DNA of 64,000 bases, from the IMG/VR virus record IMGVR_UViG_3300008954_000005, positions 1 through 64,000 of that record, one strand, 5' to 3'. The translations under genes and the position numbers were made by a program. Of the stretch, positions 4,377 through 53,554 are shown piece after piece (the stretch's first letter is position 1; every line of letters begins with the position of its first letter). The notes below the pieces were generated by a model. It had not been told where the DNA came from. It was given only the letters and a program-made list of their open reading frames with translations, and made no database searches. The DNA comes from a virus.

Positions 4377-4380
4377 GTGG

Positions 4381-4986: not shown

Positions 4987-5006
4987 GCAAAACGACCCCC
5001 CGATTT

Positions 5007-5022: not shown

Positions 5023-5163
5023 AAGGACCGGTGTAACGTGACATTGACAACAGAGTCCCTTCAGGGGTTGACCAACGCCCCGGAGAATCGCCGTACATAC
5101 TCGGACGGAGCAGGTTGGCAGCGAGTACCCTTTTCAACAATTGTCCCTTAAGGAGGGAATGCT

Positions 5164-5568
5164 ATGGACCTTAGTAAAATCGCACTGCTCAGTACCTCTG
5201 ATGCCCGCAAGATCAAGTGGGCCTCCTGCGGGAATGATGCTGAAGAAGTCAACGCTTCTCCCCGCCTTTTGGAACTTCTTGAGGATGGGTACACGGTCTA
5301 CATCGTGTCGACGAGGCCGAAGTTGAGCCCGGAGAAGTACGACAAGTGCCTCTTCGATCTCATCCCCGAGGAGAACTTCTTCACCCCCATTCCGGAGTTG
5401 TTGGACGGCCGTTGCGCTCAGGACGCGGGGTACATCGAGATGTGGGAGCGCGTGCTTACGCACCTCGGCATCCACCCAGGAAGTTTCGACGCTAAGCACT
5501 TTCGTTATGAGCTTTGTTGGATGGACCTTCGTCTGGTCGCAGAAGAGGCGGGAATCACTATTCGGTAA
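5164..5568 (+). CDS. hypothetical protein
   Basis: TAAGGAGGGAAT RBS; GC3-rich. Confidence 0.7.
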   Translation: MDLSKIALLSTSDARKIKWASCGNDAEEVNASPRLLELLEDGYTVYIVSTRPKLSPEKYDKCLFDLIPEENFFTPIPELLDGRCAQDAGYIEMWERVLTHLGIHPGSFDAKHFRYELCWMDLRLVAEEAGITIR

Positions 5569-5791
5569 ACACTTATGCCTTTAGGAGGGCTTATGGAAAA
5601 AGAAACAACCGGTGTCTGGTGGCAAGAAGTCGCACATGTTGCACTCAAGGGAAGCCTCTACTCGTACATCCTGTACATGGTGCTCTGCTAATGCGGGGCG
5701 CTTGTGTGGCGTGCGGGTGCGCTTACCACGAATGTGAATGTGATAGACTTACGTCTACAAATATACCAAACTACAAGCCAAGGAGGCTTAC

Positions 5792-34567: not shown

Positions 34568-34930
34568 GTGGAGACATGGATGAAGGAAAAAGGAGACACG
34601 GTAGACTTACTGCCGTTTGCTCAGCAAGTTAATGCTTCTCTCCAGAAGCAGAGCAAAGTAAAAAGTACGCTATATGAAAACTGGTTGGTGGACATCTACT
34701 TTGGGCCTAGCCCTACAGCAGATGAAGAACTACCAAGACTAGGTTTTATCGCTTGTGCATCGACACAAGACAAAGAGGCTGGTCCTCTCCCCAACTTGAG
34801 TAACTCAAGTGGGGTGCGAGTAGACTTCGACGAGAAGTCGGTTGTGTGGTGGTCCGGTGACTCACTGGACGATTTAGAATCTAAAATCACAAACGCATTC
34901 CCAGAAATTACCTGGAATAGGGAGGACTAA
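34568..34930 (+). CDS. hypothetical protein
   Basis: TAATG coupling to the Ubl gene. Confidence 0.6.
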   Translation: METWMKEKGDTVDLLPFAQQVNASLQKQSKVKSTLYENWLVDIYFGPSPTADEELPRLGFIACASTQDKEAGPLPNLSNSSGVRVDFDEKSVVWWSGDSLDDLESKITNAFPEITWNRED

Positions 34931-35361
34931 TGTCCACAGAGAATCTTCAAGAACAGCTTGATTCAGCAATCAAGACCAGAGATGAACATGTTCAAAATAT
35001 GGGAGATGAATTCAGCCAAGCCAATATGGATCGGCTGTCTGCACTCCAGAAGGCCGTTGCATCCGCAAAGACTGCCTTGGAAACCGCCGCTGCTGCAGCG
35101 GCTGCTCCTGCGGTAGAGGGAAATACCGACCTTTGTGTCGTATCTCTAATCCGAAGCGGAAAAAGCGACCGGGTCGTCGAGGTTCCTACGGATACCTCGG
35201 TGAGCGACCTTATGAATACTCTTGGTTGGCCAACCAACGACTTCACGTTTAAGCGTCGAGTCGGCCCAGGCCAAACCGTAGAGATTACCAATCTTGCAGC
35301 CACCCTCGGTACAGGTGATCACGAAATCTTCGTATCACCTCGTGTTGCAGGAGGCTTCTAG
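34930..35361 (+). CDS. ubiquitin-like (beta-grasp) protein with N-terminal coiled coil
   Basis: beta-grasp pattern VVSLIR..RVVEVPTDTSVSDLM...EIFVSPRVAGG-F; adjacent E2/JAB/E1. Confidence 0.8.
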   Translation: MSTENLQEQLDSAIKTRDEHVQNMGDEFSQANMDRLSALQKAVASAKTALETAAAAAAAPAVEGNTDLCVVSLIRSGKSDRVVEVPTDTSVSDLMNTLGWPTNDFTFKRRVGPGQTVEITNLAATLGTGDHEIFVSPRVAGGF

Positions 35362-35390
35362 ACTCTAGTCTAACTAGAGATTCCCTCCTT

Positions 35391-35430
35391 GGGGGTGGGG
35401 CTACTTCGGTAGCTTCACCCCCTTTTTATT
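35391..35430 (+). terminator. hairpin with cUUCGg loop and T-tract between Ubl and E2 genes
   Basis: ggggtggggctac ttcg gtagcttcacccc ctttttatt. Confidence 0.8.
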
Positions 35431-35444
35431 TACGGAGAATACCC

Positions 35445-36539
35445 ATGGCTTCAACAAGCAACACACAATGGGAATGGAGAGTTGACGACGACAGCGACAA
35501 TCTCGAATTCCTTCTATCTAAAATTATTGATGACTCCGTAGCCTCCTCCAAAGTCAACACAGTTGAACTGGAAACAGAGCTAGCAAAGCTCACAGCAAAA
35601 CGCACTGCTTGGGAGAGTAAGCTAACGCGGAGAAAGTCTATAGAGCAGTCTGTGCGAGAACGCCTAGAAAAACGACAAGTCGAACTCAGAAAAGCTCAAG
35701 ACGCCTTCCATAAAGCTAGGCAAAAAACTAGAGCAGTAGGCTACAAAGTTTCTCAGGCAGTTGAAGACTCAAGGGCTCTTAGTAATACCCTCGGACAGGA
35801 AAAGCTCTTTCTAGACAACTTCGCTGGTATCTACACAGAGGACGCCTTTAAGAACAGGGCCTTTATGGTGATGTCCCTGCGCGAGCGCATTGACTCATCT
35901 ATTCCCATCTCGTTCTCTCATGATAGAGACCAAAAGAAGATGCGGCTCTCGTGGGTCACTGGAGACATCTACATAAATAACTCCTTAGAGGGCGGTGTCT
36001 GGCCATTTAACTTTGGGCAGTACCGCGTAGAGGTCACCTTCAGCTATATGAACGGACATAGAGACGCCAGAGTGCTTATCCGTGGCCACCGAAGAAATAC
36101 CATTGTTTCAGGTGAGTACTTTCACCCGCATATCCGGAGCGATGGTACGGCCTGTCTAGGCAATGTCGCCAGGATGCTAATTGAGCACATGGCTAACCAA
36201 GACGTGGCCCAAGTCATTTGCACAGTTACGGAATATCTGTGTCACTACAACGAACAAGATCCGTACAGAAAACTGATGTTCTGGGGTGTAGCTAATCCTT
36301 ACGACCTCCCACACATCAACATGTACCAGTCTCACTTAGTGTTTGACTCAGGGCCAAAGAACCCCTGTGGCCTCTCACAATCTGACTGCATGGTTCAGCA
36401 TTTGACAGATAAAGCTGGGGAGTGCTCGTCGAGGAGCCTGCCCGCAGAGGTAGTTGTGACAGCAACATCCGTATATGAAAATCTTCAATCTTTTAGGGAG
36501 CGACTTAATGGCGAAGGTAACGAAGAAACCAACGGTTAG
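35445..36539 (+). CDS. prokaryotic E2-like ubiquitin-conjugating protein with N-terminal coiled coil
   Basis: YFHPHIRSDGTACLGN matches the E2 HPxI..G.xCL signature. Confidence 0.75.
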   Translation: MASTSNTQWEWRVDDDSDNLEFLLSKIIDDSVASSKVNTVELETELAKLTAKRTAWESKLTRRKSIEQSVRERLEKRQVELRKAQDAFHKARQKTRAVGYKVSQAVEDSRALSNTLGQEKLFLDNFAGIYTEDAFKNRAFMVMSLRERIDSSIPISFSHDRDQKKMRLSWVTGDIYINNSLEGGVWPFNFGQYRVEVTFSYMNGHRDARVLIRGHRRNTIVSGEYFHPHIRSDGTACLGNVARMLIEHMANQDVAQVICTVTEYLCHYNEQDPYRKLMFWGVANPYDLPHINMYQSHLVFDSGPKNPCGLSQSDCMVQHLTDKAGECSSRSLPAEVVVTATSVYENLQSFRERLNGEGNEETNG

Positions 36540-37506
36540 GTTCAGTCAAAAAGCCTACCAACAAATGTTTGCGTTAACGAACGCGTGTAAAATCGAAATC
36601 AGTGCTATGGGTATTGTTGCTACTGCCGAACAAAAAGAAGACGCGGGTGTAACTGAAGACTTCTATGTAACTGAGTTCTTTGTCATTGATCAGGAGTGCA
36701 CAGGCACGTCAACTGATCTAGATGATGATGCAATGGTGGACCTTCTTATGAACCTGCGTGATCAGGGAATTAAGTCGGAGCAAATGTGTGTTTGGTGGCA
36801 TAGCCACGTAAACATGGCCACTGCTCACTCAGGAACAGATGAAGCCCAAATCGAAAGATTTGATTTCGACACAGTCTGCATCTCTATTATCACTAATAAG
36901 AAGGGTGAGCTAAATCTGCGCGTGGACATGTTCCAGCCGTTTAGACACACCTTCGAGAAGTGTGATTACGTTCTAGACTTCGTAGATATCCTCCCAGATA
37001 ACTGGGCTGAGGAGATGGTCGCCACTCATGTAAATGAGAAAAAGATCATCCCGCAGAGGCTCAACGTTGTGAAATCACGATCACGCGGAGTTGTCACCGG
37101 ATACGGTGGGAACTGGGGTGGTTGGAGTCGTTGGGAAGATGACGATGACGAGCGTAACGTGCTTGGGGCATCCACCACTAGTGGTCGTGAAATCGTTAAG
37201 TCCTCCGACCTACTGAAAGAAGGCGATGACGATGACCTCCCGGCATTTGACGCCCTCGATCTCCCAAAAGAATTGGGTCATCTACAAGACGCGTGGGATC
37301 TAAATCTGCTCGACACTCAGGACGTAATGGAACTCTTTGCGAGATGGTATGCAAAAGAGTTGAGTACAGAAGAAGTTGTCCAAGAGCTAGAGGAAACCCA
37401 CAACATCCTTGTAAGCGATTTAAAAGCTGGAGACGATGAGGATCCGGCTGATGCTGTCGTGGATACTGAAGTAGATGACCTGTTAACTTTTGGAGGTACT
37501 GCATGA
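36508..37506 (+). CDS. JAB/MPN+ (JAMM) metalloprotease with acidic C-terminal tail
   Basis: E(KIEISA)...WWHSHVNMATAHSGTD = HxHx7Sx2D. Confidence 0.9.
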   Translation: MAKVTKKPTVRFSQKAYQQMFALTNACKIEISAMGIVATAEQKEDAGVTEDFYVTEFFVIDQECTGTSTDLDDDAMVDLLMNLRDQGIKSEQMCVWWHSHVNMATAHSGTDEAQIERFDFDTVCISIITNKKGELNLRVDMFQPFRHTFEKCDYVLDFVDILPDNWAEEMVATHVNEKKIIPQRLNVVKSRSRGVVTGYGGNWGGWSRWEDDDDERNVLGASTTSGREIVKSSDLLKEGDDDDLPAFDALDLPKELGHLQDAWDLNLLDTQDVMELFARWYAKELSTEEVVQELEETHNILVSDLKAGDDEDPADAVVDTEVDDLLTFGGTA

Positions 37507-38165
37507 TTGACACCACGAGGCAGTCTGGAATTATTCCAGACGACCGCCTCTCGGACGTGTCGGTAGCGATCATCGGTGTGGGGGCCATTGGCTCTCACAC
37601 CGTTGAGTCGCTCTCAAAAATGGGAATCCGACATTTTCATATATTTGATGATGACGTTGTAGAAGAACACAACCTAGCCAACCAAGGCTATTTCCTACCC
37701 GAAATCGGGTATAAGAAAGTTGAAGCCTTAGCTAATCGTATTTCGGTTGGAACTGGGGCGGAGGTTGTTGCTGACGCATGTCGAGTAGAAGACAACCACG
37801 ACTTTACGGAACGGTACGTAATCTCTGCTGTAGACAATATGGCCTCTCGAAAAAGCATTTTCGAATCATTCCTCAACAGCACCACATCCCGTTTCTTTTT
37901 GGATGGTCGTATGGCGGCTCGGTTCGGGCAAGTCTACTTCGTAGACAAACTCAAACCAGAAACCATCGAAAAGTATGAAAACAGCCTATTCAGTGATGAG
38001 GAAGCTGTTCCCCTGCCGTGCACGGAGAAGGCCACAATCTTCTGCGCGTATGGGATTGCGTCTTTTATGTCCGCTCTTATCGCAAAGAGCATTATCGAAG
38101 AGCCCATTAAGTTTATGTCTGCGGAACTAGATTTCGCAAACATACTCCTGATGCAAGCTCTTTAA
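37503..38165 (+). CDS. E1-like ThiF-family adenylyltransferase
   Basis: IIGVGAIGS, FDDDVVEEHNLANQ, AVDN, candidate catalytic Cys in PLPCTEK. Confidence 0.92.
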   Translation: MIDTTRQSGIIPDDRLSDVSVAIIGVGAIGSHTVESLSKMGIRHFHIFDDDVVEEHNLANQGYFLPEIGYKKVEALANRISVGTGAEVVADACRVEDNHDFTERYVISAVDNMASRKSIFESFLNSTTSRFFLDGRMAARFGQVYFVDKLKPETIEKYENSLFSDEEAVPLPCTEKATIFCAYGIASFMSALIAKSIIEEPIKFMSAELDFANILLMQAL

Positions 38166-38215
38166 ATCAACCAATCGGGCTACGTCCCGAACTTAGAACC
38201 CTTAAGGAGGGAATT

Positions 38216-38959
38216 ATGGCGAATGACAAGCAGAAAAGTTGGACCACCGGTCTTCCTATGGAGGGCCTCATCAGCCCGTCTCGGGCACCCGATGTGATCA
38301 GCGTGGAATTCAACGGTACTACCACCAAGCTTCTGAAGCAGGTGGTAGCGAAGGATGAGGAGGGCACCGCCGTCTCCATCCGATACGTTGGAACACCTGT
38401 TGGTCCTGACGGGCGGTCCTGCCGCTTCGCAATGTCCATTGAAACAAATGGATTCGTGCGAGGCTCTGCGGCGATGAACTTCATCGCTGCGGGTGGTTGG
38501 GGTCGTGGTACGACTAAGCCCGATGAGGCTACCAAGCGTGAGAGCCGGAACAACTTCGTTCGTGGACTCATCACTAGCGCAATCGTCCATCAGGGTATGG
38601 ACAACAGCGCGGAGATGAAGTCCGTGATCGAACGGGAAACCGGCCTCACGGTTACTGACGGTGAGATGTCCCCAGAGGACAAGAACCTGTACGCTCTGTT
38701 GGGCGTTCGGGCGTACATCGTCACCTTGGCGGAAAGCCGGAACCTCAAGTTCTCGGTGGACCTCAAGAGCTTCATGGGCAAGGTGGTTCAGCCTACCTAT
38801 GCCGCCATCGTTGAGGGGGAGTGGGATGAGGAAAGTGACGAAGTCGCTCTCACCTCTGCTCTGAGCGAGGCTCACGTTCAACTGCTCACTGGTGCAGGCC
38901 TGAAGTTCCGCAAGGTTCGGAGGGCTCGTGGGGTGCAAAGGAAGACTCAGACCTCGTAG
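38216..38959 (+). CDS. hypothetical protein (GC3-rich)
   Basis: CCCTTAAGGAGGGAAT RBS; followed by terminator at 39001-39040. Confidence 0.75.
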   Translation: MANDKQKSWTTGLPMEGLISPSRAPDVISVEFNGTTTKLLKQVVAKDEEGTAVSIRYVGTPVGPDGRSCRFAMSIETNGFVRGSAAMNFIAAGGWGRGTTKPDEATKRESRNNFVRGLITSAIVHQGMDNSAEMKSVIERETGLTVTDGEMSPEDKNLYALLGVRAYIVTLAESRNLKFSVDLKSFMGKVVQPTYAAIVEGEWDEESDEVALTSALSEAHVQLLTGAGLKFRKVRRARGVQRKTQTS

Positions 38960-39074
38960 TCTGATCTCCCAATTGTACGCTTAGCCGTGCGGGCCTTATA
39001 GAGAGAGGGGGGTTTATCCCCCCCTCTTTCTTTTTACCCCAAACCCTATTAAGGTGTAATACCGATTGATAGAA

Positions 39075-40429: not shown

Positions 40430-40513
40430 TTTTATTCCTAATGGAGAACCTACTACCGATGAATATTTATGCAGCGGTATTGAGAACAAAACCAACAAAT
40501 GGAGGTTATTACC

Positions 40514-41413
40514 ATGCAGCTTGAGCAGCAGGTATTCCCAATTGACAGCATCGAGCGAAATGTGCTCGGTTTCCGAAACAGTCGATCCGATGTTGGAGAT
40601 ACGCGAGAACTTCGCGCCTCCATCATTTCCGATGGGCTGCTAAACCCCCCAATCGTTCACGTTACTACAGATGAAGATGGTAATGAGAGAGTCCTTCTCA
40701 TTGCGGGCTATCGACGACTCCAGGCTATTCTGGATGAGCGGCAGGCTCGAAGTGAGGGGGAGGATGAAGAGGCTTTCTTCGAAGACATCGCATGCGGTGT
40801 CCACGTTGGATCTCTTGAGTCCGCTCTCGCCCTGAACATTGCAGAGAACCTGCAGCGTGAAACGCTAAACTTCGCAGATAAGTGTGAAGCCGTATTCCGA
40901 CTTAATGAGCGCATCGGTAATCAGCAAGAAGTTGCTGATATGCTGAACATCTCTCAGCCCCAGGTGAGCGTTCTTTGCTCCACCTACAAGGGACTGAGTA
41001 CTGTTGCGTTCGATTGTCTTCGGCACGGTCGAATCACCATGGGACAGGCTAAGAAGCTTGCCAAGGTGGTGAAGGCTGACGGTACTCCAGACGCTGGTCA
41101 GCAGGATGAAATCCTTGAACAGCTTCTGGGACAGGGTAAGGATGAGGTTCCTGACACTAAGCAGCGTCAGCGAGCTAAGACCTACCGCTCGAAGAAGGAA
41201 GTCGAAGAGCTTCGTACCGCTCTTGCAAACGACGAAACCGGACTGGATCAGGAGCACAAGGACGCGGCGACCCGCTTCGTTCAGTGGTACTTCTGCGAAA
41301 TCGATACTGATGAACTCATTCATCGTATTGATGCGGTCGAAGAGGTTACGGTCGAAGATAAGCCCACCAAGAAGACGATTAAGCGTAAGCGTCGTATTCG
41401 GGTAGGTGACTAA
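40514..41413 (+). CDS. parB: ParB/Spo0J-family protein (ParB N-terminal domain + HTH)
   Basis: LRASIISDGLLNPPIV, LIAGYRRL, ENLQRETLN, QQEVADMLNISQPQVS. Confidence 0.85.
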   Translation: MQLEQQVFPIDSIERNVLGFRNSRSDVGDTRELRASIISDGLLNPPIVHVTTDEDGNERVLLIAGYRRLQAILDERQARSEGEDEEAFFEDIACGVHVGSLESALALNIAENLQRETLNFADKCEAVFRLNERIGNQQEVADMLNISQPQVSVLCSTYKGLSTVAFDCLRHGRITMGQAKKLAKVVKADGTPDAGQQDEILEQLLGQGKDEVPDTKQRQRAKTYRSKKEVEELRTALANDETGLDQEHKDAATRFVQWYFCEIDTDELIHRIDAVEEVTVEDKPTKKTIKRKRRIRVGD

Positions 41414-43006
41414 ATGAACCGGAGCGTCGAAGAACTCGACGTTCTCATTAGGGCTGCGCACCCGGTGATCTTTGTGGTTAGCCATGAAGAACATCGGGTT
41501 GCGCAAGCTCTTCATGAGATTGTTGAGCGCAAAAATAAAAGTTCAGAGGCTAACGCCTCTCTGTGGACATGGTCTATGACCGATGGAGCCTACTGCGGCG
41601 ACGAAAACTTCACAGATTTAGACGGTCCTCTTGAGATTCTTGAGCATATCGGAAAGTACGAAAAATCCGGTGTCTTTATGTTGAAGGACTTCGCGTATTT
41701 CCTGAATGAAGGCCCTGCCTATCTTGTTCAAAGAAAACTACGCGACCTCACGTCAGCTATGGGGCATGGAATTTCCATCGTAATTGTGGATAGTGAGTTA
41801 AACATCCCACCCCGTCTTGAGAAGCTTATGACCGTTGTGGACTTCGACCTCCCAACAGCACAAGAACTTGAGAGCTACACGGCGTGGGTAGTTAAGGACC
41901 ACCTAGGTAAGCAGAAGGACGTACCCCAAATTCATGAGGACGCCTGTAATGCTGCCGTAGGCCTTACTGCTACAGAAGTTGAAAACGTCTTCTGTAAGTC
42001 GCTCGCTAAAAATAGCACGCTTGATCCTAAAGTGATCATGGAAGAGAAGAAGCACATCATTCGTAAGTCTGGGGTGCTTCAGTACCATGACGTAGATAGG
42101 GATATGGCTGATGTAGGTGGACTCGCAACCCTTAAGGGATGGGTCAACCAACGAGGTCGGGCGTTCACCTCCAAGGCTAGAGAGTATGGTCTTCCACACC
42201 CAAGAGGAGCCCTCATTGTGGGAATTCCGGGTACTGGTAAATCCTTGATTGCAAAGTGTATCGGCGCATCATGGAAGATGCCGGTGCTGCGTATGGATGT
42301 GGGCGCTTTGTTCGGACAGTTTGTCGGGCAGTCAGAAGCAAATATGCGGAAGGCCCTGAAGACTGCGGAAGCTCTAGCTCCCTGTGTATTGTGGATTGAT
42401 GAACTCGAAAAGGGTTTTGGTAGTGCGGGTGGTGGGGGTGCTCACGATAGCGGAACCTCTGCCCGTGTGTTTGGTAGCTTCCTATCTTGGATGCAGGAGA
42501 AAACTTCTCCTGTATTCGTAGTTGCTACCGCAAATGACGTAAGCCAACTTCCACCAGAGATGCTTAGAAAAGGAAGATTTGACGAATTGTTTTTCGTAGA
42601 CCTTCCAAATGAAGCAGACAGGAAGGAAGTATTCCGTATCCACATTAGCAGGCTGGGGAGAGACCCAGACATGTTTGATCTCGGTGATCTTGTCAAACTC
42701 ACGAACGGTTTTACCGGCGCTGAGATTGAGCAAGTGATCGTTGACGGTTTATTCTTGGCCTTTGATGAGGACAGGGAACCAACCCTAAATGATTATTCAA
42801 TTGCTGCTGCTAGGACAGTCCCAATCTCCAAAACAATGGAGAAGAAGATTGAAGCTCTTCGTGGCTGGGCAAATGGTCGTGCTCTCATGGCCAATGAGTC
42901 TGACAAGCGAAAGAACGCTCCTACAAGCAGAGCGGCCAAGCGTGAAGGACGAGTCAAGCCAACAACAGGCTCTGACTGGTCCGGTCTGAAGAAGAAGGCA
43001 AATTGA
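41414..43006 (+). CDS. Ycf46-like AAA+ ATPase
   Basis: degenerate N-terminal AAA; GIPGTGKS Walker A, LWIDELEK Walker B, LPPEMLRKGRFDELFFVDLP. Confidence 0.9.
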   Translation: MNRSVEELDVLIRAAHPVIFVVSHEEHRVAQALHEIVERKNKSSEANASLWTWSMTDGAYCGDENFTDLDGPLEILEHIGKYEKSGVFMLKDFAYFLNEGPAYLVQRKLRDLTSAMGHGISIVIVDSELNIPPRLEKLMTVVDFDLPTAQELESYTAWVVKDHLGKQKDVPQIHEDACNAAVGLTATEVENVFCKSLAKNSTLDPKVIMEEKKHIIRKSGVLQYHDVDRDMADVGGLATLKGWVNQRGRAFTSKAREYGLPHPRGALIVGIPGTGKSLIAKCIGASWKMPVLRMDVGALFGQFVGQSEANMRKALKTAEALAPCVLWIDELEKGFGSAGGGGAHDSGTSARVFGSFLSWMQEKTSPVFVVATANDVSQLPPEMLRKGRFDELFFVDLPNEADRKEVFRIHISRLGRDPDMFDLGDLVKLTNGFTGAEIEQVIVDGLFLAFDEDREPTLNDYSIAAARTVPISKTMEKKIEALRGWANGRALMANESDKRKNAPTSRAAKREGRVKPTTGSDWSGLKKKAN

Positions 43007-43875
43007 GTCGCGGGCGGCATCATACTGGAATAATCCAGCTAGACGAATTTCTTCAGGGAGGTCTTCCTTCGGGTATCTGCGAAGTTATCGGGGAAGACGC
43101 GAGTGGGAAATCTACGTTGGGGTTTAGTGTGATGAGGGAGGCCTCTTTAAGGGGCCTCCCAACCGCCTTGATTCATACGGAAGGGTATCCCGATAAAGGG
43201 TATATCCGTAGGTCCGGTCCAACCGAATGCTTAGTTAGTGTACCTACTAACGCCGAAGCAGCTATCGAATCTGCCCACGTTTCCCTCCTTAGTGGGTGTG
43301 TGATCGTAGTGATCGATTCTCTTTCGGCTGCTGAGTCTGTATGCGATCAGGCTCAAGTTGTCGGTGACCGTGTCCCTTTCGCTGCTAGGAAGATGGCTTA
43401 CCATGGCCTTAGTATCCTCCGAGAAGAAGCCTTAAAAAGAAACGCATTGGTGCTGGTCGTGAATCAGCTAAGAACGCCTATCCAATCCCTAGTGCCCACA
43501 CCCTGTTCCTCATTTGAGGGGACTATAAACAGGTTGTGTGCCGTGCGGATAAGGACCGTTAGAGAAACCACCAGAAATGAGTATGGGGAGCTTGCCTACC
43601 TAAAGGTGCGGTTCAACATCTATCGCTCATTGGTTTCTCCCCCAAGTGACAGAGCCTACGGATTTCTCTTTAATCAAAAAGGGTTTTGTCGGGGCTTCGA
43701 ACTTATGCGTGCTCTATTATCGGCTAATATACTAGACCAAAAAGGCGCATACCTTATCGGTCAAGATGGCAAATCGCTAGGCCCTGGGTATCTAGGTGCC
43801 GCAGAGCAAATCAATAAAAATTTTGAACACTATCGGAGGATCTACGATGATCGAAGTCAAAGTAGTAGTCCATGA
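43003..43875 (+). CDS. RecA/UvsX-like ATPase (divergent)
   Basis: TGIIQLD..LQGGLPSG, GEDASGKST, VVIDSLSA, VVNQLR. Confidence 0.8.
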   Translation: MSRGRHHTGIIQLDEFLQGGLPSGICEVIGEDASGKSTLGFSVMREASLRGLPTALIHTEGYPDKGYIRRSGPTECLVSVPTNAEAAIESAHVSLLSGCVIVVIDSLSAAESVCDQAQVVGDRVPFAARKMAYHGLSILREEALKRNALVLVVNQLRTPIQSLVPTPCSSFEGTINRLCAVRIRTVRETTRNEYGELAYLKVRFNIYRSLVSPPSDRAYGFLFNQKGFCRGFELMRALLSANILDQKGAYLIGQDGKSLGPGYLGAAEQINKNFEHYRRIYDDRSQSSSP

Positions 43876-44032
43876 AGACGGAACCGTTGAGACCGAGGTT
43901 AATGGCGTAAAGGGAAAGGGTTGTACCCAGTACACAAACGCTGTAATCAAGGCCTTGGGCGGTGAAGTAGTCAAGGATGAAAAGAAACAAGAGTATTATG
44001 AGTCCGAGTCTACCTCTGTGAAGAGTAGATGA
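43847..44032 (+). CDS. DUF2997-family protein
   Basis: DGTVETEVNGVKGKGCTQYT..ALG......KQEYY. Confidence 0.8.
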   Translation: MIEVKVVVHEDGTVETEVNGVKGKGCTQYTNAVIKALGGEVVKDEKKQEYYESESTSVKSR

Positions 44033-44616
44033 GGATCCATAGAGTTACCTACGGAAGTCGTGTAAACGGCCCCGGTGTAAGAACAGTTCTACATACACAG
44101 GGATGCACAATAGGCTGCGCCGGTTGTTTCAATGCACACACCTGGGATGCCGACAAAGGCGACGAACTCACGGTAGATACCGTTATTGAACTGCTTCTGT
44201 CCGACATTAAGGACGGAGTGACTATTTCTGGTGGAGAGCCCACCGAGCAATGGGAAGAGCTACACGTAGTTCTTCAAAGACTTAAAGACGTAGGCCACAG
44301 TGTGGTCCTATTTACAGGACTAACCAAAGCCCAACTAGAAGAACGTGAGATCTGGAAAGATCTTCAGAGCCTAACCGATATCCTTATCGTTGGGCCATAT
44401 GACAGAACAAAACATATACAAAGTGAACCTTTAAGAAGCTCCTCTAATCAGGAAGTCTTCTTCTTCTCAGAATACACATCTGATGATCTAGAATCCGTAC
44501 CGGAAATCGAAGTACACGTTGACGGGGATACCGTCACCATTGCTGGGTTTCCTACTAAACCAATAAGAACAACTCTCTTACGAGAGTTAAAGGAGGGCGC
44601 ATGTCGCACCTTGTAA
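44029..44616 (+). CDS. NrdG-like radical SAM (4Fe-4S) protein
   Basis: NGPGVR..QGCTIGCAGCFN, GVTISGGEP, SSNQ. Confidence 0.85.
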   Translation: MRIHRVTYGSRVNGPGVRTVLHTQGCTIGCAGCFNAHTWDADKGDELTVDTVIELLLSDIKDGVTISGGEPTEQWEELHVVLQRLKDVGHSVVLFTGLTKAQLEEREIWKDLQSLTDILIVGPYDRTKHIQSEPLRSSSNQEVFFFSEYTSDDLESVPEIEVHVDGDTVTIAGFPTKPIRTTLLRELKEGACRTL

Positions 44617-45020
44617 GTTGTAAGTCCTGTATGAAGGACAAAGATGCCGTACTCTCCGCTCTTAGTAAGCTAGGGGTTCCCGCAGAACTGATTCAAGTAG
44701 CGCAAGATGGCCAAACCCTGGACCTCCAAGGTTACATGCGTGGCCACACTGCGAAAGTGGATATCCTTGTGGATAGATCTTTTCACGGCGGATACGGACC
44801 TTTTGGTTTTTCCAAGAGTGAGGACGGAACATATCAAGTTCACGTAGACGATATGGATGACCGTGGCGCACTAGCTGCGAAGACTAAGACTAGTACATTT
44901 TCCACTGGAGTAAGTCAGTGGTACAGCGCTCTGAAAGCCCAGAGAGCCTTAAAGAAGCAAGGTCTCTCCACCAAAATCAAGCAAGAAGGGCAAAAGCTGG
45001 TGGTTTTGGCTAAGGGATAA
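44601..45020 (+). CDS. DUF1257 (Ycf35-like) protein
   Basis: MSHL...KDKDAVLSALSKLG...GF....GTYQ..D pattern. Confidence 0.7.
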   Translation: MSHLVSCKSCMKDKDAVLSALSKLGVPAELIQVAQDGQTLDLQGYMRGHTAKVDILVDRSFHGGYGPFGFSKSEDGTYQVHVDDMDDRGALAAKTKTSTFSTGVSQWYSALKAQRALKKQGLSTKIKQEGQKLVVLAKG

Positions 45021-49156: not shown

Positions 49157-52100
49157 TTACACGTAAATCGTGATTTTGATGTAGTTGGCCGGGTAAAACG
49201 GCACGATTGTTACTTCTGCCTGAATGGTATCAGGGTTCTCCGAGTCCTGGATAAGGGAGTCAAGACTAGCTTCGGCAACAACCGACCCAGTCACACTCGC
49301 CAATGCTCCCTGCATACCCAGGGAAACTGCTTCTAAAAGCTGCTTTGTAATGTTGTTACGTCCAATAAATTTCTTGACCTGTCCACGAAGCAGTTTAGCT
49401 ACGTAGTCTACAGCTTTAAGAATAGACAACTCCCTGGTCTTCAACGAAGAGACGTCTGTGGTCAATTGGTGTCTTGACACACAAGGAGCCCCAGGAACAT
49501 CCTGGATAACCCAATAAATACCGCCAGCGGCTGCAGTAGCCATAGCGTTCTCACTAAACAGATCATTCGAACCAATCGGACGGGTGAACCCAACCATCGG
49601 TAGGTTGGTGAACGGTTGTGACGGATTCTGTTGTCCAATCATCGCAGCAACACCAGCGGCTAGGTAGTAGCCAGGGACCAAAGTCTCTAGACCACCAACA
49701 GAAACCGCACACTGGTCAGGCTGCATCATAATCAGTCGACGATTCTGGAACCCAGTTACGCCGCCAGCGATTTCAGCAAGAGTCTCGCAAGTCTCCAACT
49801 TCCCACCAGTGGACGAGTTGTCCAGAGCGGCCTGTCGAACAAAGACACTACCCGCTTCGGGTACATCTGTGATGTCTTCAGGGGCAGCTTCGTTGTAGTA
49901 GGAATCCTCGTTACCCGATGTTGCAGGGCCGTAGACACCGGCTTGGTAAATATCATCCGTCTCTAGAATGATAGTCGTATCGGTCTCTCCATCGAGAAGA
50001 CCAACGACCAAGTACCGGAAAGCGTCACCCTCACGGTCAAAGTAAACACCGTCAGCAGGGTCAAAGGCTTGCGTCGGATCTAGTCCCTCACCAGCAGCGT
50101 TCGAAATCGAACTATCAGCAAGAGCCAAGAAGACGTTTTTACCGGAGTCTTGGAGAGTGGCCGTGTACTGGGTACCCGACTTGTGCTCGATAACCCAATC
50201 ACCAGAGATGGCTAGACCCGAAGGCTTCTCAGTGGGTAGCTCGGGACAAGTAAGGGCCATACGCTCTTTCTTAGCGGTAGGCGCAGACATGTCCGTTACA
50301 TGCTGATTGAAAACCTTGATGACTTCCATATCGTGGGTGAGGGGCGCAAGTGCGTATACCTCTTTCAACTGTAGGAAATCGAGGGCTTCAGCGTAGGCCT
50401 TGACGGTACCCATCGGGGCATCGTCAGTAGTCGCAGAGATCCCGATAGCCGAAACATTGATATTAGTCGTGTTCAAGAACGCGAGGTACATACCAAAGGC
50501 AAGCGGGTTCGCAGGGTCAATCGGACCAATCGTGGACTCAACCTCAGCAATACTATTAAAGGTTAATAATCCGGGATTGGCTGCTGCACCAGTCACGTCC
50601 TTACGGAGAGCTTTATAATCAACGTAGATGTCAGCGCTTCCGGAAGATGCGATACCAGCGGCGTCGCGGTTCAAACCACCCTTGATTGTGTAAGACTGCT
50701 CAAGATCGTTTCCAGAGCCCTCGGGCTGAATGCTGCGGTCAGTGGCGACCGTATCATCATCAAGACCCTCGGCAGTAAGATACCAAGTACTAAGGTTGTC
50801 CTTGTTATCAACAGTCAGGTCATCAAGAACCAGCATGGCTCCAGTGAACGAAGACGCTGGGGTCGACAAGTTCTCCTGACCAACGACAAGACCTAGAGCG
50901 GTCCCATTGTCATACAGCCGGTCTGCAAGAGCGGTCGAGTTACTAGCACCGTGGAAGATCCGACTCGTATAGCTAGACGCTGCAGCCTTCGCCGCAGACG
51001 CCCAAGCACGCTTGTAGGTAATATCCCAAGTAGTGGAGGTCGTGAATCGGAACACAATGGGCTCAGCGGTCTGGGAGTTTCCAGCATTTTCATCGCCAGA
51101 GAAGCACAGGCTGATTTGTCCCGTTGAGTACGCGATACGGCTCATAGCCTTACCGGTATTTGCGGTTACCCCGCCGTCAAAGCACCAATCAGTGAATGCA
51201 TCTGACGAGGGCGCGTTGACCACATGCGATAGGGAGTTGGAGATGGAGTAGATCTCCATTCCATAATCACCAGCGCCGTTGTCTTTAAGAACCACATCAA
51301 CCGCAACAGACGTTGAGGTGTTCGCCGCATCATCGGTGGCGTCGGTACCAGTATCCGACAACCCGAGCCAAGCAAGTAGCGCAGCATCGGTATCAGCAAG
51401 TACAGCGATTGCGTCACCCACAGCAGGCGCACCGTTGTGGAAGAGAACAATCTCTCCAGCGTGATTACAGGCTTCGACACCCGTTCCATCAAGAGCGCCA
51501 GGGGCATTAAGAATGGTTACACAGTCATCGATGTCGGCCTCGGCACCACCCACAGTTACTGTGAGTTCTGCAGAAGCTGCACCATCTACAGAGATGTAGA
51601 GGGAGTAGGCACCCGCTGCTGGGATGTTGGCAACCGCAGCATCCTCGCAACGAATTGCGGGAACAGCAGTGAGGCTACCAAGCGCGATGGTTTGGCCCCC
51701 AGGCTGAAGCGCCTTCTGCATGACAGAGGTTACCGCTGTGGACCCCATCATGTTGTAGTCGCTAGAATCAAGCTGCGCTCCACGACCATTGGCCATCGAA
51801 GCAGAGCCGGAGTTTACGAGGTCGGTAAGCTGACCAGCACTAAAGGTGCCCGTCTTGTTTCCTTCCAGGGCACCAGACCACAGATTGTAAATAGCAGCCG
51901 CGCTACTCATGCTCATTTCAAGCATGGAGTCAGCGCCATCGTTAGAGTCCGTCTTAATCCGTAGAGGAGCGAAGGTTTCACCAATCTCGTTAGCAAGGTT
52001 GTAGCCAAGAACACTGGCTTCACCATCATCGAGAAGAGCGGTGATTACCGTCGCAGGAACATCTGTTGCCGCGAAGGTATGGGAAACAGCCGTTCCACCA

Positions 52101-53554
52101 TCTACCGCGATAGTGATGCTTTCCCCAGTAAGGTCCAGGTCAGCAGCAGTAGCGGCTCCGATATCGATGGAACCGCAGATGTAAGCGCATCCCTGGTCTT
52201 CCGCAGCTTCTGCATTACCGACCGCTAGTGTCGCATCAGCGTCAGCAGTAAAGTCGACCGGGTCATGCCCACCGCAGAGGTTCCATTGCCCAGCGCCAGC
52301 AGCACTAATCAACCCGCCACCAAGGGCAGCGGCTCCAGTACCATCGAAGTCAAGCACCCGGACAAGAGAAGTATCCGAATCGGATACATCACTTCGGAGG
52401 TATACAGCGATTTCGTCAGAGGCCGCAGCAATCGTTGCTGACGAATCGATAGCAGACGCTAGATCAGCGAAAGTGGTCGTATCTTCCAGCGTAATGGTAA
52501 GTGTCGGGGATGCGTAAACAGCGCTTACCGCGCCTTCAGCAAGAACCACAACAATATCGTTACCCGCATCACCGATGCTTGCAGCAGCGCCCATATCAGA
52601 AGCTACGCCACTATCCTTGTAGGTAGAAAGCCCAAGAGCAACCACCTCAATGTAGTTAGCACCCTGTGGGTCGGGCCACTGTGCCGCACCAAGAAGCTCA
52701 GAAGCATCAGGAGCGATATCATGGCCGAGGGGGATCTTCACAGAAGCTTCCCCACCCATAGCGGCTAATTTATTAGTCTTTAATCCAGACGAGACAATAC
52801 CGAACAACTCACCCTTGGTATCGTGAAGTGCGGGAGAGTGCGACCGTCCAGTTACCTTTTCGGTTCCATCAGATACGTGATAACGCGTAGGCGAGACATG
52901 GTACGCGTTTACGTTGACCGCGCTATCTTCCGAGAACTCCTGCAGCGTTCCACCAAAGTATCGATACAGCTTCGTGTTGGCATCGCTGATGACAATTTCG
53001 TCCACGTCAGCCAGCGGTGAGGGGAAGCTGCTGTAAGGAATGATGTATTCGCTATTGGTGTACTGAGTTTGCCCAGAGACCTTTTGTCCCTCGACAAAAC
53101 CAAGTTCCGTGTAGGCGTCATCAGCAACCGCAACCAGTTCAAGCGACTGGCTAGAGCCGCTGGAATCAGTCTGGATAACAAGTTTCTCATTCACGAACGA
53201 CGCCGTAGCGCCGGAAAGAGCCTTGTTAATCTGGTTCTTAATAAGGTTGTGGTCCAACCCTGAGTTGGACAGGGTGGGAGGGAACGTTACAACTGTCGCC
53301 AAGTTGCCGTTAATCTTGATAGAAATGCTCTTACCCTCGATAGAGACAAGCTCTCCGAGAGCAGCACTGCTACGCAAAATCGCGGCTACATCGACAAGAG
53401 CGTCTGTATCCAGACTCCCTTCACTGTCGATTGGTGAAACAATTTGATAACAAGGCCCAACGAGGCACGGGACCAAGGTGGGGGTAAGGACTGTAGGCGC
53501 ACCGGCAGTGATTTCCTGTGCAATCTCTACGCCTGGACGAGTAAGCGTTGCCAT
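49157..53554 (-). CDS. tail sheath protein (very large, 1465 aa)
   Basis: N-terminal TLTRPGVEI; C-terminal RHQLTTD, ELSILKAVDYV, FIGRNNIT, VPFYPANYIKITIYV. Confidence 0.88.
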   Translation of the reverse strand: MATLTRPGVEIAQEITAGAPTVLTPTLVPCLVGPCYQIVSPIDSEGSLDTDALVDVAAILRSSAALGELVSIEGKSISIKINGNLATVVTFPPTLSNSGLDHNLIKNQINKALSGATASFVNEKLVIQTDSSGSSQSLELVAVADDAYTELGFVEGQKVSGQTQYTNSEYIIPYSSFPSPLADVDEIVISDANTKLYRYFGGTLQEFSEDSAVNVNAYHVSPTRYHVSDGTEKVTGRSHSPALHDTKGELFGIVSSGLKTNKLAAMGGEASVKIPLGHDIAPDASELLGAAQWPDPQGANYIEVVALGLSTYKDSGVASDMGAAASIGDAGNDIVVVLAEGAVSAVYASPTLTITLEDTTTFADLASAIDSSATIAAASDEIAVYLRSDVSDSDTSLVRVLDFDGTGAAALGGGLISAAGAGQWNLCGGHDPVDFTADADATLAVGNAEAAEDQGCAYICGSIDIGAATAADLDLTGESITIAVDGGTAVSHTFAATDVPATVITALLDDGEASVLGYNLANEIGETFAPLRIKTDSNDGADSMLEMSMSSAAAIYNLWSGALEGNKTGTFSAGQLTDLVNSGSASMANGRGAQLDSSDYNMMGSTAVTSVMQKALQPGGQTIALGSLTAVPAIRCEDAAVANIPAAGAYSLYISVDGAASAELTVTVGGAEADIDDCVTILNAPGALDGTGVEACNHAGEIVLFHNGAPAVGDAIAVLADTDAALLAWLGLSDTGTDATDDAANTSTSVAVDVVLKDNGAGDYGMEIYSISNSLSHVVNAPSSDAFTDWCFDGGVTANTGKAMSRIAYSTGQISLCFSGDENAGNSQTAEPIVFRFTTSTTWDITYKRAWASAAKAAASSYTSRIFHGASNSTALADRLYDNGTALGLVVGQENLSTPASSFTGAMLVLDDLTVDNKDNLSTWYLTAEGLDDDTVATDRSIQPEGSGNDLEQSYTIKGGLNRDAAGIASSGSADIYVDYKALRKDVTGAAANPGLLTFNSIAEVESTIGPIDPANPLAFGMYLAFLNTTNINVSAIGISATTDDAPMGTVKAYAEALDFLQLKEVYALAPLTHDMEVIKVFNQHVTDMSAPTAKKERMALTCPELPTEKPSGLAISGDWVIEHKSGTQYTATLQDSGKNVFLALADSSISNAAGEGLDPTQAFDPADGVYFDREGDAFRYLVVGLLDGETDTTIILETDDIYQAGVYGPATSGNEDSYYNEAAPEDITDVPEAGSVFVRQAALDNSSTGGKLETCETLAEIAGGVTGFQNRRLIMMQPDQCAVSVGGLETLVPGYYLAAGVAAMIGQQNPSQPFTNLPMVGFTRPIGSNDLFSENAMATAAAGGIYWVIQDVPGAPCVSRHQLTTDVSSLKTRELSILKAVDYVAKLLRGQVKKFIGRNNITKQLLEAVSLGMQGALASVTGSVVAEASLDSLIQDSENPDTIQAEVTIVPFYPANYIKITIYV

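What the first reader, a model, noticed from the sequence alone, without database searches (positions are those of the whole stretch)
34930..38165. Complete phage-encoded ubiquitin-like conjugation operon (Ubl - E2 - JAB - E1)
Seen in sequence: four adjacent co-oriented genes. (1) A 143-aa protein with an N-terminal coiled coil and Ala linker, then a beta-grasp-like domain ending VAGG-F-stop. (2) An E2-like protein with YFHPHIRSDGTACLGN. (3) A JAMM protease with an exact HSHx7Sx2D motif, overlapping the E2 gene. (4) A ThiF/E1 with GxGxxG, DxDxxxxxNLxxQ and a candidate catalytic Cys (PLPC), coupled by ATGA. Established knowledge: bacterial E1/E2/JAB/Ubl operons exist (Bil, Bub-type, CBASS Cap2/Cap3), several are anti-phage, and the JAB trims the Ubl to expose the terminal Gly. 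Inference: here the set lies among phage tRNA, RNR and virion genes with no thiamine or molybdopterin genes nearby. It is therefore probably a viral protein-tagging pathway, used to modify host or virion proteins, counter host Ubl defences, or exclude rival phages. The single Phe after GG predicts obligatory JAB maturation.
Basis: partly seen in the sequence, partly recalled or inferred. Interest (0 to 1): 0.93.

Follow-up and report, generated by a model that had tools for sequence, protein, structure and literature searches.

The report
Phage-encoded ubiquitin-like protein-tagging cassette
An uncultured ~156 kb marine phage carries its own four-gene ubiquitin-style tagging kit (tag, activating enzyme, carrier enzyme, trimming protease), machinery studied so far only as bacterial anti-phage defence; relatives occur in many other phages, and what it tags is unknown.

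Summary
Four co-oriented, overlapping or abutting genes (34930-38165, + strand) lie in an IMG/VR virus record among phage genes.

- **Ubl precursor:** a coiled-coil N-terminus and a beta-grasp domain. The Gly-Gly is invariant in 18 homologues and is followed by 0-3 variable residues.
- **E2-like protein:** a UBC-like fold with an HPH-x7-C-x-G motif. The motif is essentially invariant in ~154 family representatives and spaced as in UbcH5.
- **JAMM peptidase:** E, HxH, S and D are invariant. The family profile hits Rpn11 at E=2.3e-7.
- **Minimal ThiF-type E1:** 220 aa (Pfam 9.8e-22), with an invariant Cys173.

Synteny holds in every related contig I examined. The E2 family has 1,432 metagenomic representatives. 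All seven distant members sampled sit in the same small-Ubl / E2 / JAB / mini-E1 cassette. The setting is evidently phage in one (terminase, portal), and three lie on 170-205 kb contigs. crAss001 gp77-gp76 is a related JAB-E1 pair.

Gene order and Ubl processing logic match Bil operons, but the proteins fail the PADLOC, PRTRC and Bub membership tests.

It most likely runs a thioester conjugation cascade. Targets and biological role are untested. No description was found in the searchable literature. The scan has noted the same class of cassette on other phage DNA, but not this clade.

The parts
34568..34930 (+). Conserved 120-aa protein of unknown family, translationally coupled to the Ubl (its stop overlaps the Ubl start as TAATG, and GGAGGA lies just upstream). 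Possible accessory, adaptor or target.
   Evidence: ORF and junction. A 119-aa gene holds the same position in L002-L007. No Pfam, PHROG or NCBIfam hit. ESM Atlas gave nothing useful. It diverges fast, 26-38% identity.
34930..35361 (+). Ubl precursor: N-terminal helical coiled-coil domain (res 3-57), Ala-rich linker, beta-grasp domain (68-137), and C-terminal R-VAGG followed by a one-residue tail (Phe143).
   Evidence: 18 homologues have invariant G141-G142 and a variable tail of 0-3 aa. AF2 model. Foldseek top hits are all Ubl domains: TBCE, USP7, SUMO, ubiquitin, MoaD, E ~1e-4.
35391..35430 (+). GC-rich hairpin (14 bp stem, UUCG loop) plus T-tract. An intrinsic terminator or attenuator between the Ubl gene and the enzyme genes.
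   Evidence: Scan and sequence. A hairpin plus T-tract occupies the same intergenic position in L003, L005 and L002, although the sequences differ.
35445..36539 (+). E2-like conjugating enzyme: long N-terminal helix (17-129), UBC-like core (130-287) with HPH(227-229)-x7-Cys237-x-Gly, and a C-terminal Cys/His cluster (C308, C315, H319, C327) that is probably a small zinc module.
   Evidence: Alignment A2. AF2 model. The Foldseek top 50 are all E2 enzymes, prob 0.9-0.99. VIA Z 5-5.8 over 115-125 residues spanning the whole UBC core. Motif invariant in ~154 representatives. Pfam UQ_con is sub-threshold, E=0.027. Zinc-finger Pfam hits occur in relatives.
36475..37506 (+). JAMM/MPN+ metallopeptidase (N-terminal ~170 aa) with an acidic, poorly conserved C-terminal half. 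The likely true start is 36508. Predicted Ubl-maturing and possibly deconjugating enzyme.
   Evidence: E41, H109, H111, S119 and D122 are invariant across 8 divergent homologues. The profile hits only JAMM deubiquitinases in the PDB, with Rpn11 at E=2.3e-7. Prok-JAB is matched by 6 of 8 members, best 3e-5.
37503..38165 (+). Minimal E1 (ThiF-type adenylation domain only, 220 aa) with candidate catalytic Cys173 in a C-T-x-K-x-T motif. It has no inserted CYS domain, UFD or zinc motif.
   Evidence: PF00899 E=9.8e-22, 77.7 bits. PDB profile hits UBA5, TcdA, UBA1, MccB and Cap2. R6, G25, G27, D49, D51, N57, Q61, K72, D111, R116 and C173 are invariant across 9 phage mini-E1s, including crAss001 gp76 and Fpv1 gp53.
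38216..38959 (+). Conserved 247-aa protein of unknown family that follows the E1 and precedes the next terminator-like site. Possibly part of the same transcription unit (accessory or target).
   Evidence: ORF. A gene of 232-269 aa holds the same position in L002-L006. No family hit. ESM Atlas: viral hypothetical clusters only.
39007..39025 (+). Terminator-like G6/C6 hairpin with a T-rich tail. The probable 3' end of the enzyme transcription unit.
   Evidence: Consensus scan only. Not tested further.

Best explanation
This is a virus-encoded ubiquitin-like conjugation cascade. All reaction steps below are inferred from sequence and predicted structure; none is shown biochemically.

1) The Ubl is made as a precursor, in excess over its enzymes because a terminator or attenuator follows its gene. 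The JAMM peptidase removes the short tail after Gly142.
2) The minimal E1, presumably a ThiF-like homodimer, adenylates Gly142 and probably forms a thioester on Cys173.
3) The Ubl passes to Cys237 of the E2-like protein.
4) The E2 transfers it to lysines of target proteins. Its own long coiled-coil and C-terminal Cys/His (zinc) module probably act as the specificity (E3-like) elements.
5) The JAB may also reverse the modification.
6) The Ubl's coiled-coil N-terminus would let conjugated tags pair or cluster.

The cassette is a vertically inherited part of this phage clade. In distant phages it usually sits among replication and nucleotide-metabolism genes. My best guess for its role is modification of host or phage proteins during infection (take-over or counter-defence) rather than cofactor synthesis. 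That role is a low-confidence inference.
For: - All four components carry their family's catalytic residues as invariant columns.
- Folds: beta-grasp and UBC-like.
- The JAB profile hits only deubiquitinating JAMM enzymes.
- The His229-to-Cys237 spacing equals Asn77-to-Cys85 of UbcH5. The UbcH5 numbering is from my own knowledge; the motif is.
- Invariant GG with a variable tail matches the experimentally shown BilC processing of BilA, and the gene order Ubl-E2-DUB-E1 matches Bil operons (paper 10.1101/2023.09.26.559546).
- The genes are overlapping or tightly spaced.
- The attenuator position is conserved in four diverged loci.
- Synteny is conserved in all five related loci examined and in 7 of 7 distant E2 relatives. 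The setting is evidently phage in one (terminase, portal), and three lie on 170-205 kb contigs.
- E2 is the fastest-evolving enzyme (29-34% identity against 58-66% for E1), as expected for the target-recognising part.
- The phage record holds no sulfur-relay genes.
Against: - There is no biochemical evidence.
- The E2 and JAB matches to Pfam are below the gathering scores.
- The structural Z for the E2 core is only 5-5.8 with rmsd 4-5 A. Both AF2 models rest on shallow alignments (mean pLDDT ~75, pTM <0.5).
- The E1 lacks the Arg of the canonical NLxRQ motif (Asn60 here, variable in relatives) and has no CYS or UFD domain. How it hands the Ubl to the E2 is therefore unclear.
- No target or E3 has been identified.
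- Synteny within this clade may reflect only collinear genomes. The distant cassettes are what carry the weight.
Confidence: 0.7

Rival explanations
1. Same chemistry but a different purpose. The cassette is a phage-carried defence or superinfection-exclusion system that tags proteins of rival phages, as host Bil systems tag the central tail fibre, so protecting the infected cell for the resident phage.
For: Architecture and gene order are those of Bil. Bil is an anti-phage system that conjugates its Ubl to a phage tail protein (abstract of 10.1101/2023.09.04.556158). The fast-evolving E2 fits an arms race.
Against: The cassette sits at a fixed position in every relative examined rather than in a variable island. 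It is found in phages of very different types, next to replication genes. Its proteins match no PADLOC defence model except the generic E1 domain.
Confidence: 0.12
2. A structural or assembly role. The Ubl is ligated to the phage's own virion or scaffold proteins (covalent cross-linking or assembly control). This would be a more elaborate version of the Ubl/JAB pair in lambdoid tail-assembly genes.
For: Lambdoid and T1-like phages have a Ubl (TAPI) and a JAB (TAPK) in their tail modules (PMC1779556). The Ubl's coiled-coil could bridge subunits. An SLT lysin lies two genes upstream.
Against: In this window the virion genes lie more than 10 kb away on the other strand. In distant phages the cassette neighbours primase, UDG, RNR and exonuclease genes, not structural genes. 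Lambda-type systems have no E1 or E2.
Confidence: 0.08
3. Not a protein-conjugation system. The ThiS-like protein is a sulfur carrier (thiocarboxylate) activated by the ThiF-like enzyme and matured by the JAMM peptidase, as in CysO/Mec+ or TtuB. It would serve thiolation of a nucleoside, cofactor or phage DNA/tRNA.
For: The small Ubl of a distant cassette matches Pfam ThiS above its cut-off. The E1 is a minimal ThiF/MoeB-type enzyme and its best NCBIfam hit is ThiF. The phage encodes four tRNAs. Deposited relatives are annotated as 'thiamine biosynthesis protein'.
Against: An E2-like protein with an invariant UBC-type HPH...C active site is an obligatory member of the cassette. The 155.7 kb record holds no rhodanese, PP-loop sulfurtransferase or cysteine desulfurase, although it is only ~87% complete and the host could supply them. 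There are no thiazole or molybdopterin genes. The Ubl model resembles ubiquitin/SUMO-type domains at least as well as MoaD.
Confidence: 0.06
4. The E1-like enzyme modifies a peptide C-terminus (MccB/PaaA-like RiPP chemistry), and the other genes are unrelated neighbours.
For: MccB and PaaA are among the E1's PDB sequence matches.
Against: Those matches are no better than UBA5 or UBA1. The substrate gene encodes a folded beta-grasp protein with a GG end. Four-gene linkage is conserved across very distant phages.
Confidence: 0.02

Closest known systems
Bil (BilABCD, 'bacterial ISG15-like') operons, Types I and II (Hor et al., 10.1101/2023.09.04.556158; Chambers et al., 10.1101/2023.09.26.559546)
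   Same: The gene order is identical (Ubl-E2-JAB DUB-E1). The Ubl has a conserved C-terminal Gly followed by a non-conserved tail that the JAB removes. Some Type II Ubls also have coiled-coil N-terminal domains. There is no separate E3. A thioester E1/E2 cascade is expected.
   Different: It is encoded by a phage, not a host defence island. The E1 is a 220-aa adenylation domain without the inserted CYS domain that carries BilD's catalytic Cys. The E2 has a canonical UBC-type HPH-x7-C motif, a ~130-aa coiled-coil and a Cys/His C-terminal module, not the CEHH-type BilB. No PADLOC model matched the Ubl, E2 or JAB. The JAB's nearest solved relatives by sequence are Rpn11-type, not BilC.
Related uncharacterised cassettes in other phages: crAss001 gp78-gp77-gp76, Flavobacterium phage Fpv1 gp54-gp53, and uncultured marine phages (loci L008-L014)
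   Same: They share the mini-E1 family with the invariant C-T-x-K-x-T cysteine. The JAB variant HSH-x-NM...SGTD is the same. L009, L010 and L013 have a small Ubl ending KG-A or GG and an E2 with HPH...C.
   Different: The other cassettes have a short Ubl (65-101 aa) without the coiled-coil, longer E2s (520-620 aa) with many more C-terminal cysteines, and in crAss001 an E1 with an N-terminal extension. The E2 status of crAss001 gp78 is weak (hhalign E=0.16). None is characterised, and the deposited annotation reads 'thiamine biosynthesis protein'.
Eukaryotic/archaeal ubiquitin machinery (UBC E2s; Rpn11; the Caldiarchaeum E1/E2/RING/Rpn11 operon, PMC5654768)
   Same: The E2 core's best structural matches are canonical UBC enzymes, with the same motif spacing. 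The JAB profile's only PDB matches are Rpn11/PSMD14 and the Caldiarchaeum Rpn11-like protein. The Ubl has a GG end.
   Different: The E1 is minimal. There is no separate RING E3 and no proteasome partner. Sequence identity is very low (10-17%), and the structural scores are moderate.
Bub operons (Ye et al., PMC11601596) and Type II CBASS Cap2/Cap3
   Same: They use E1-, E2- and peptidase-type domains from the same superfamilies. The E1's N-terminal part matches Cap2-type PADLOC models (E=6e-16).
   Different: [quoted passage not shown] Here the genes are separate and both cysteines are invariant. CBASS fuses E1 to E2 and conjugates a CD-NTase, not a Ubl.
PRTRC cassette (ParB-related, ThiF-related; NCBIfam TIGR03734-03742) of plasmids and ICEs
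   Same: A ThiF-type protein and a ParB gene lie in one neighbourhood. There are weak hits to PRTRC_ThiF (1.5e-16) and PRTRC_parB (1.9e-8).
   Different: Both scores are far below the curated cut-offs (60 vs 145 bits; 33 vs 279 bits), and no PRTRC protein A-F model matched any other gene.

Membership tests
Bil (BilABCD) Type I/II | Four-gene operon in the order Ubl - E2 - JAB DUB - E1 | tested here: met
   ORF map. Order as stated in 10.1101/2023.09.26.559546.
Bil (BilABCD) Type I/II | Ubl with a conserved C-terminal Gly followed by a non-conserved tail removed by the DUB | tested here: met
   GG is invariant in 18 sequences, with a tail of 0-3 variable residues. Cleavage itself was not tested.
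Bil (BilABCD) Type I/II | Multidomain E1 with an inserted CYS domain carrying the catalytic cysteine | tested here: not met
   The E1 is 220 aa, and the ThiF domain covers residues 14-208. The only candidate Cys (173) lies within the adenylation domain.
Bil (BilABCD) Type I/II | Sequence membership of the Ubl, E2 and DUB in defence-system HMMs | tested here: not met
   PADLOC found 0 families for the Ubl, E2 and JAB at E<=0.1. The 25 E1 matches listed (of 32) are all Cap2-type E1-E2 models. Caveat: I did not verify which Bil models that library release holds.
Bil (BilABCD) Type I/II | Host-encoded anti-phage function | not testable with these tools
   Here the operon lies in a virus record. 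Function was not assayed.
UBC/E2 superfamily | UBC fold | tested here: met
   The Foldseek top 50 are all E2 enzymes, prob 0.9-0.99, E ~1e-3. VIA Z 5.0-5.8, rmsd 4-5 A, 111-127 aligned residues in the E2 rows, covering model 130-287 against essentially the whole E2. Moderate strength.
UBC/E2 superfamily | HPN-type motif with the catalytic Cys 8 residues after its last residue | tested here: met
   HPH(227-229) and C237. H227 152/154, P228 154/154, H229 154/154, C237 154/154. The third residue is His instead of Asn.
UBC/E2 superfamily | Pfam UQ_con above the gathering score | tested here: not met
   14.5 bits against 27. 10 of 76 family members hit UQ_con at E<=0.05, best 4.9e-4, none above the cut-off. 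No Prok-E2 family was listed.
UBC/E2 superfamily | Forms a thioester with the Ubl | not testable with these tools
   Requires biochemistry.
JAMM/MPN+ metallopeptidases | Catalytic motif E ... H-x-H-x7-S-x2-D | tested here: met
   E41, H109, H111, S119 and D122 are invariant in 8 divergent sequences.
JAMM/MPN+ metallopeptidases | Significant sequence similarity to known members | tested here: met
   Profile A6 against the PDB: Rpn11 at E=2.3e-7, and all 15 hits are JAMM deubiquitinases. The single sequence against Pfam Prok-JAB gives only 15.3 bits against a 25-bit cut-off.
ThiF/E1 adenylating enzymes | Pfam PF00899 above the gathering score, with the GxGxxG, DxD, Lys and Asp adenylation residues | tested here: met
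   77.7 bits against 28.1. G25, G27, D49, D51, K72, D111 and R116 are invariant.
ThiF/E1 adenylating enzymes | Arg of the canonical NLxRQ ATP-binding motif | tested here: not met
   The sequence is NLANQ. The position is Asn/Cys/Ser/Gly across 9 phage mini-E1s. The invariant N-terminal Arg6 may substitute (inference).
ThiF/E1 adenylating enzymes | Catalytic cysteine for the E1~Ubl thioester | tested here: inconclusive
   Cys173 is invariant in 9 divergent sequences, but its position relative to the active site was not modelled.
PRTRC cassette | Matches to the PRTRC ThiF, ParB and protein A-F models above their cut-offs | tested here: not met
   60.5 bits against 144.75; 33.3 against 278.6; no A-F hits.
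Bub operons | [quoted passage not shown] | tested here: not met
   The genes are separate, and the E1 and E2 cysteines are invariant. Features as given in the abstract of PMC11601596.
ThiS/MoaD sulfur-carrier pathways | Sulfur donor and acceptor enzymes (rhodanese, cysteine desulfurase, PP-loop thiolase, ThiG/MoaE) associated, and no E2 | tested here: not met
   No PF00581, PF01171 or PF00266 in the 155.7 kb record. An E2 is present. ThiG and MoaE were not searched for across the record. The record is ~87% complete and host enzymes cannot be excluded.

The most novel reading that the evidence does not exclude
Tailed phages of many lineages, including crAss-like gut phages, own a distinct and undescribed ubiquitination system. 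Its E2 is a self-contained E2-E3 hybrid (coiled-coil, canonical HPH...C UBC core, RING/B-box-like zinc module). It tags host defence or DNA-metabolism proteins to take over the cell. Its UBC- and Rpn11-like components are closer to the archaeal/eukaryotic machinery than the known bacterial systems are, which would make viruses a reservoir or vehicle in the early evolution of ubiquitin signalling.
Probability: 0.15. Interest if true: 0.93.

Novelty: new variant of a known kind. Interest (0 to 1): 0.8.

Why it matters
Prokaryotic E1/E2/JAB/Ubl systems (CBASS Cap2/Cap3, Bil, Bub) have been characterised only as host weapons against phages. A complete cascade that is a stable, vertically inherited part of phage genomes would show that viruses of bacteria use ubiquitin-like tagging themselves, as many eukaryotic viruses manipulate ubiquitin.

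The family is large: 1,432 representatives at 50% clustering. Related JAB-E1 pairs occur in cultured crAss-like and Flavobacterium phages.

It also offers compact, E3-free enzymes:
- a 220-aa E1
- an E2 with a canonical active site
- a tag that leaves a predictable VAGG remnant

These could be studied biochemically and perhaps used as ligation tools. Finally, it suggests that 'ThiF, thiamine biosynthesis' annotations in phage genomes may need revisiting.

Tried and rejected
No complex model was obtained.
- **VIA-align wide search** with the whole E2 model was swamped by the 110-residue N-terminal helix, giving only coiled-coil matches at Z ~7.
- **76-sequence E2 family profile against PDB sequences** likewise returned only coiled-coil or low-complexity matches. 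The 10-sequence profile did the same.
- **Single-sequence searches against the PDB** for the Ubl and E2 gave nothing significant.
- **blastn of the operon and tblastn of the JAB and of a distant E2** against 50,697 deposited phage genomes found nothing. Only the E1 finds deposited relatives.
- **Pattern scans:** the viral-contig scan with the single E2 found nothing. With the alignment it found one IMG/VR locus. The scan of 185,579 species genomes found none. This method is pattern-limited and is not evidence of absence from bacteria.
- **ESM Atlas** gave no lead for the 120-aa or 247-aa neighbours.
- **PRTRC membership**, a lead from an earlier scan note, was tested and rejected.
- **No Bil or Cap2 chain** appeared among the best 50 structural matches of the E2 model. 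This is not evidence that the folds differ.
- **Eight literature searches** found no description of a phage-encoded E1/E2/JAB/Ubl set. The library lacks most subscription journals.

Full report
**What is there.** The window belongs to an IMG/VR virus record of 155,722 bp, CheckV completeness 87%. Composition is even, GC 0.46-0.55. Recognisable phage genes lie on both sides of the finding:
- ribonucleotide reductase, a repair exonuclease, ParB, an AAA ATPase, a tail-sheath-like protein and a head maturation protease
- an SLT lysin
- four tRNAs

On the + strand between 34568 and 38959 lie six tightly packed genes:
- a 120-aa unknown
- the 143-aa putative Ubl
- a 364-aa E2-like protein
- a 343-aa JAB-like protein
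- a 220-aa ThiF-like protein
- a 247-aa unknown

The 120-aa gene's stop overlaps the Ubl start as TAATG. The JAB gene overlaps the E2 gene, and the E1 start overlaps the JAB stop as ATGA. A strong hairpin with a T-tract (35391-35430) follows the Ubl gene, and a second terminator-like site follows the 247-aa gene.

**The Ubl.**
- Eighteen homologues (44-100% identical) share an N-terminal helical region and a conserved C-terminal domain. Their Gly-Gly is invariant and is followed by 0-3 non-conserved residues. One homologue stops exactly at GG.
- AlphaFold2 on this alignment gives two long helices (3-57), a disordered Ala-rich linker and a bb-a-bbb domain with pLDDT ~85.
- All leading Foldseek matches are ubiquitin-like domains: TBCE, USP7, SUMO, ubiquitin, MoaD and archaeal ubiquitin, at E 1e-4 to 1e-3.
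- The pattern of a conserved C-terminal Gly plus a variable tail is what Chambers et al. describe for Type II BilA, whose tail is removed by the JAB protein BilC.

**The E2.**
- Sequence searches are weak: UQ_con E=0.027.
- In ten homologues the motif Y-x-H-P-H-x4-G-x2-C-L-G-N is invariant.
- The model has a 113-residue helix, then a domain (130-287) whose 50 best Foldseek matches are all E2 enzymes. VIA-align gives Z 5.0-5.8 over about 111-127 residues for the E2 chains, covering essentially the entire UBC core. This is moderate, and I treat it as support rather than proof.
- The cysteine lies 8 residues after the third motif residue, as Cys85 does after Asn77 in UbcH5 (my knowledge of UbcH5).
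- A core-only profile found 1,432 representatives (E<=1e-3) among 1.84 billion clustered proteins. Among the ~154 best, H-P-H and the Cys are invariant or nearly so.
- Downstream, C308, C315, H319 and C327 are conserved. Larger relatives have many more cysteines there and give weak AN1, Prok-RING_1 and B-box zinc-finger hits. This suggests a zinc module (inference).

**The JAB.**
- E41, H109, H111, S119 and D122, the full JAMM set, are invariant across eight homologues down to 20% identity.
- The profile matches only JAMM deubiquitinases in the PDB: Rpn11 at 2.3e-7, PSMD14, and the Caldiarchaeum Rpn11-like protein.
- Homologues start at the residue aligned with Met12, so the real start is probably 36508.

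**The E1.**
- PF00899 matches at 9.8e-22. The nearest solved relatives by sequence are UBA5, TcdA, UBA1, MccB and Cap2.
- It is only the adenylation domain.
- Across nine phage mini-E1s, including crAss001 gp76 and Flavobacterium phage Fpv1 gp53, the adenylation residues and Cys173 (C-T-x-K-x-T) are invariant. The Arg of the canonical NLxRQ motif is absent.

**Distribution.**
- Related contigs of 35-167 kb from marine and other metagenomes keep the order SLT - 119 aa - Ubl - E2 - JAB - E1 - ~240 aa - ~358 aa - ParB - AAA.
- The hairpin after the Ubl gene is conserved in position but not in sequence.
- All seven distant E2 relatives sampled (E 1e-10 to 1e-26) sit in a cassette of small Ubl / E2 / JAB / mini-E1. 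In one the contig ends within the E1 gene. The cassette was checked gene by gene only in L009, L010, L013 and L014. In the other three it rests on gene order, gene sizes and a ThiF hit.
- These lie in different genomic settings. L010 is a 42 kb contig with a T7-like portal and terminase, L009 is a 170 kb contig and L013 a 205 kb contig.
- There the Ubl is 65-101 aa, matches Pfam ThiS above its cut-off in one case (L009), and ends KG-A or GG.
- No deposited phage has a detectable JAB or E2 homologue by tblastn, but 84 deposited phages have the mini-E1.
- In crAss001 the mini-E1 follows a JAB protein carrying the same HSH-x-NM...SGTD variant. gp78 upstream is only faintly E2-like.
- BFVD holds structurally similar uncharacterised proteins from uncultured Caudovirales and crAss-like phages.

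**Mechanism.** The most economical reading is a thioester cascade:
1. JAB trimming of the precursor.
2. Adenylation of Gly142 by the E1, with a probable Cys173 thioester.
3. Transfer to E2 Cys237.
4. Ligation to target lysines, with the E2's own coiled-coil and zinc module supplying specificity.

The attenuator would give excess tag over enzymes. E2 is the fastest-evolving enzyme (29-34% identity, against 42-48% for JAB and 58-66% for E1), which fits a target-recognition role. All reaction steps are inferred.

The sulfur-carrier alternative is disfavoured by the obligatory E2 and by the absence of rhodanese, PP-loop thiolase and cysteine desulfurase in the record.

The biological role is open. 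The cassette's fixed position in the clade, and its placement near replication genes in distant phages, suggest an infection-cycle function. One distant locus has it flanked by a Gad2 (anti-Gabija) homologue and NAD-salvage genes. That is a single suggestive observation for counter-defence.

**Comparison with known systems.**
- **Bil.** The cassette works like Bil in gene order, tail-processing logic, coiled-coil Ubl variants and the lack of a separate E3. It is not a Bil member. The E1 lacks the CYS domain, the E2 is UBC-canonical rather than CEHH-type, and no PADLOC model matches three of the four proteins.
- **PRTRC.** Not a member; scores are far below the cut-offs.
- **Bub.** Not a member; Bub uses fusions and oxyester chemistry.
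- **CBASS Cap2/Cap3.** Not a member.

**Novelty.** Eight full-text searches found no description of a phage-encoded E1/E2/JAB/Ubl set. Iyer et al. 2006 report only the Ubl/JAB pair of lambdoid tail modules.

Earlier notes of this scan report the same class of cassette on other phage DNA, but nothing close to this clade.

**Limits.**
- There is no biochemistry.
- The AF2 models come from shallow alignments (pLDDT ~75).
- No target has been identified.

Noticed in passing
L008 (Bacteroides phage crAss001, MH675552.1) 2028-5699: gp78 (hypothetical), gp77 ('metalloprotease', Prok-JAB E=4.9e-4, motif HSHNNMATFFSGTD) and gp76 ('thiamine biosynthesis protein ThiF', with the ThiF domain in its C-terminal 220 aa) form a co-oriented set resembling E2?-JAB-E1. 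The 'thiamine biosynthesis' annotation is probably misleading.
   Followed up: partly
L009 2919-11526: In a 170 kb metagenomic contig carrying a distant copy of the cassette, the cassette is flanked upstream by a Gad2 (anti-Gabija) family gene and an RNA ligase. Downstream lie NAPRTase and an isochorismatase/nicotinamidase-like gene (NAD salvage). This looks like a possible anti-defence neighbourhood.
   Followed up: no
window 37503-38165 (E1 residues 57-61): The canonical ATP-binding Arg of the E1 'NLxRQ' motif is Asn here, and Cys/Ser/Gly in other phage mini-E1s. An N-terminal Arg6 is invariant instead. This is a family-wide departure from ThiF/MoeB/UBA enzymes.
   Followed up: partly
window 36366-36425 (E2 residues 308-327): A conserved C-x6-C-x3-H-x7-C cluster lies at the E2 C-terminus. 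Relatives expand it to 8 or more cysteines with weak AN1, Prok-RING_1 and B-box hits. It may be a built-in E3-like zinc module.
   Followed up: partly
window 36475-36508: The listed JAB ORF probably starts 11 codons too early. Homologues align from Met12 (36508), which gives the same 32-nt overlap with the E2 gene as in L003.
   Followed up: yes
L002 5127-5558; L005 4912-5964: SET-domain (protein lysine methyltransferase-like) genes lie a few genes upstream of the cassette in two related contigs. None was seen at that position in the window.
   Followed up: no
window 38180-38938 (- strand): A 252-aa ORF on the minus strand almost exactly shadows the conserved 247-aa + strand gene. It is most likely a spurious antisense ORF.
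   Followed up: no
window 40499-45020: Downstream lies a ParB-like gene, then an AAA ATPase of PHROG 8638 (E=4e-140) that is 33-35% identical to AAA ATPases of mycobacteriophages and a streptococcal satellite phage, then a RecA/UvsX-like gene. This module of unknown role is conserved next to the cassette in this clade.
   Followed up: partly
window 49157-53554 (- strand): A 1,465-aa ORF matches tail sheath (phrog_279) weakly, and only in its last ~180 residues. This is unusually large for a sheath protein.
   Followed up: no
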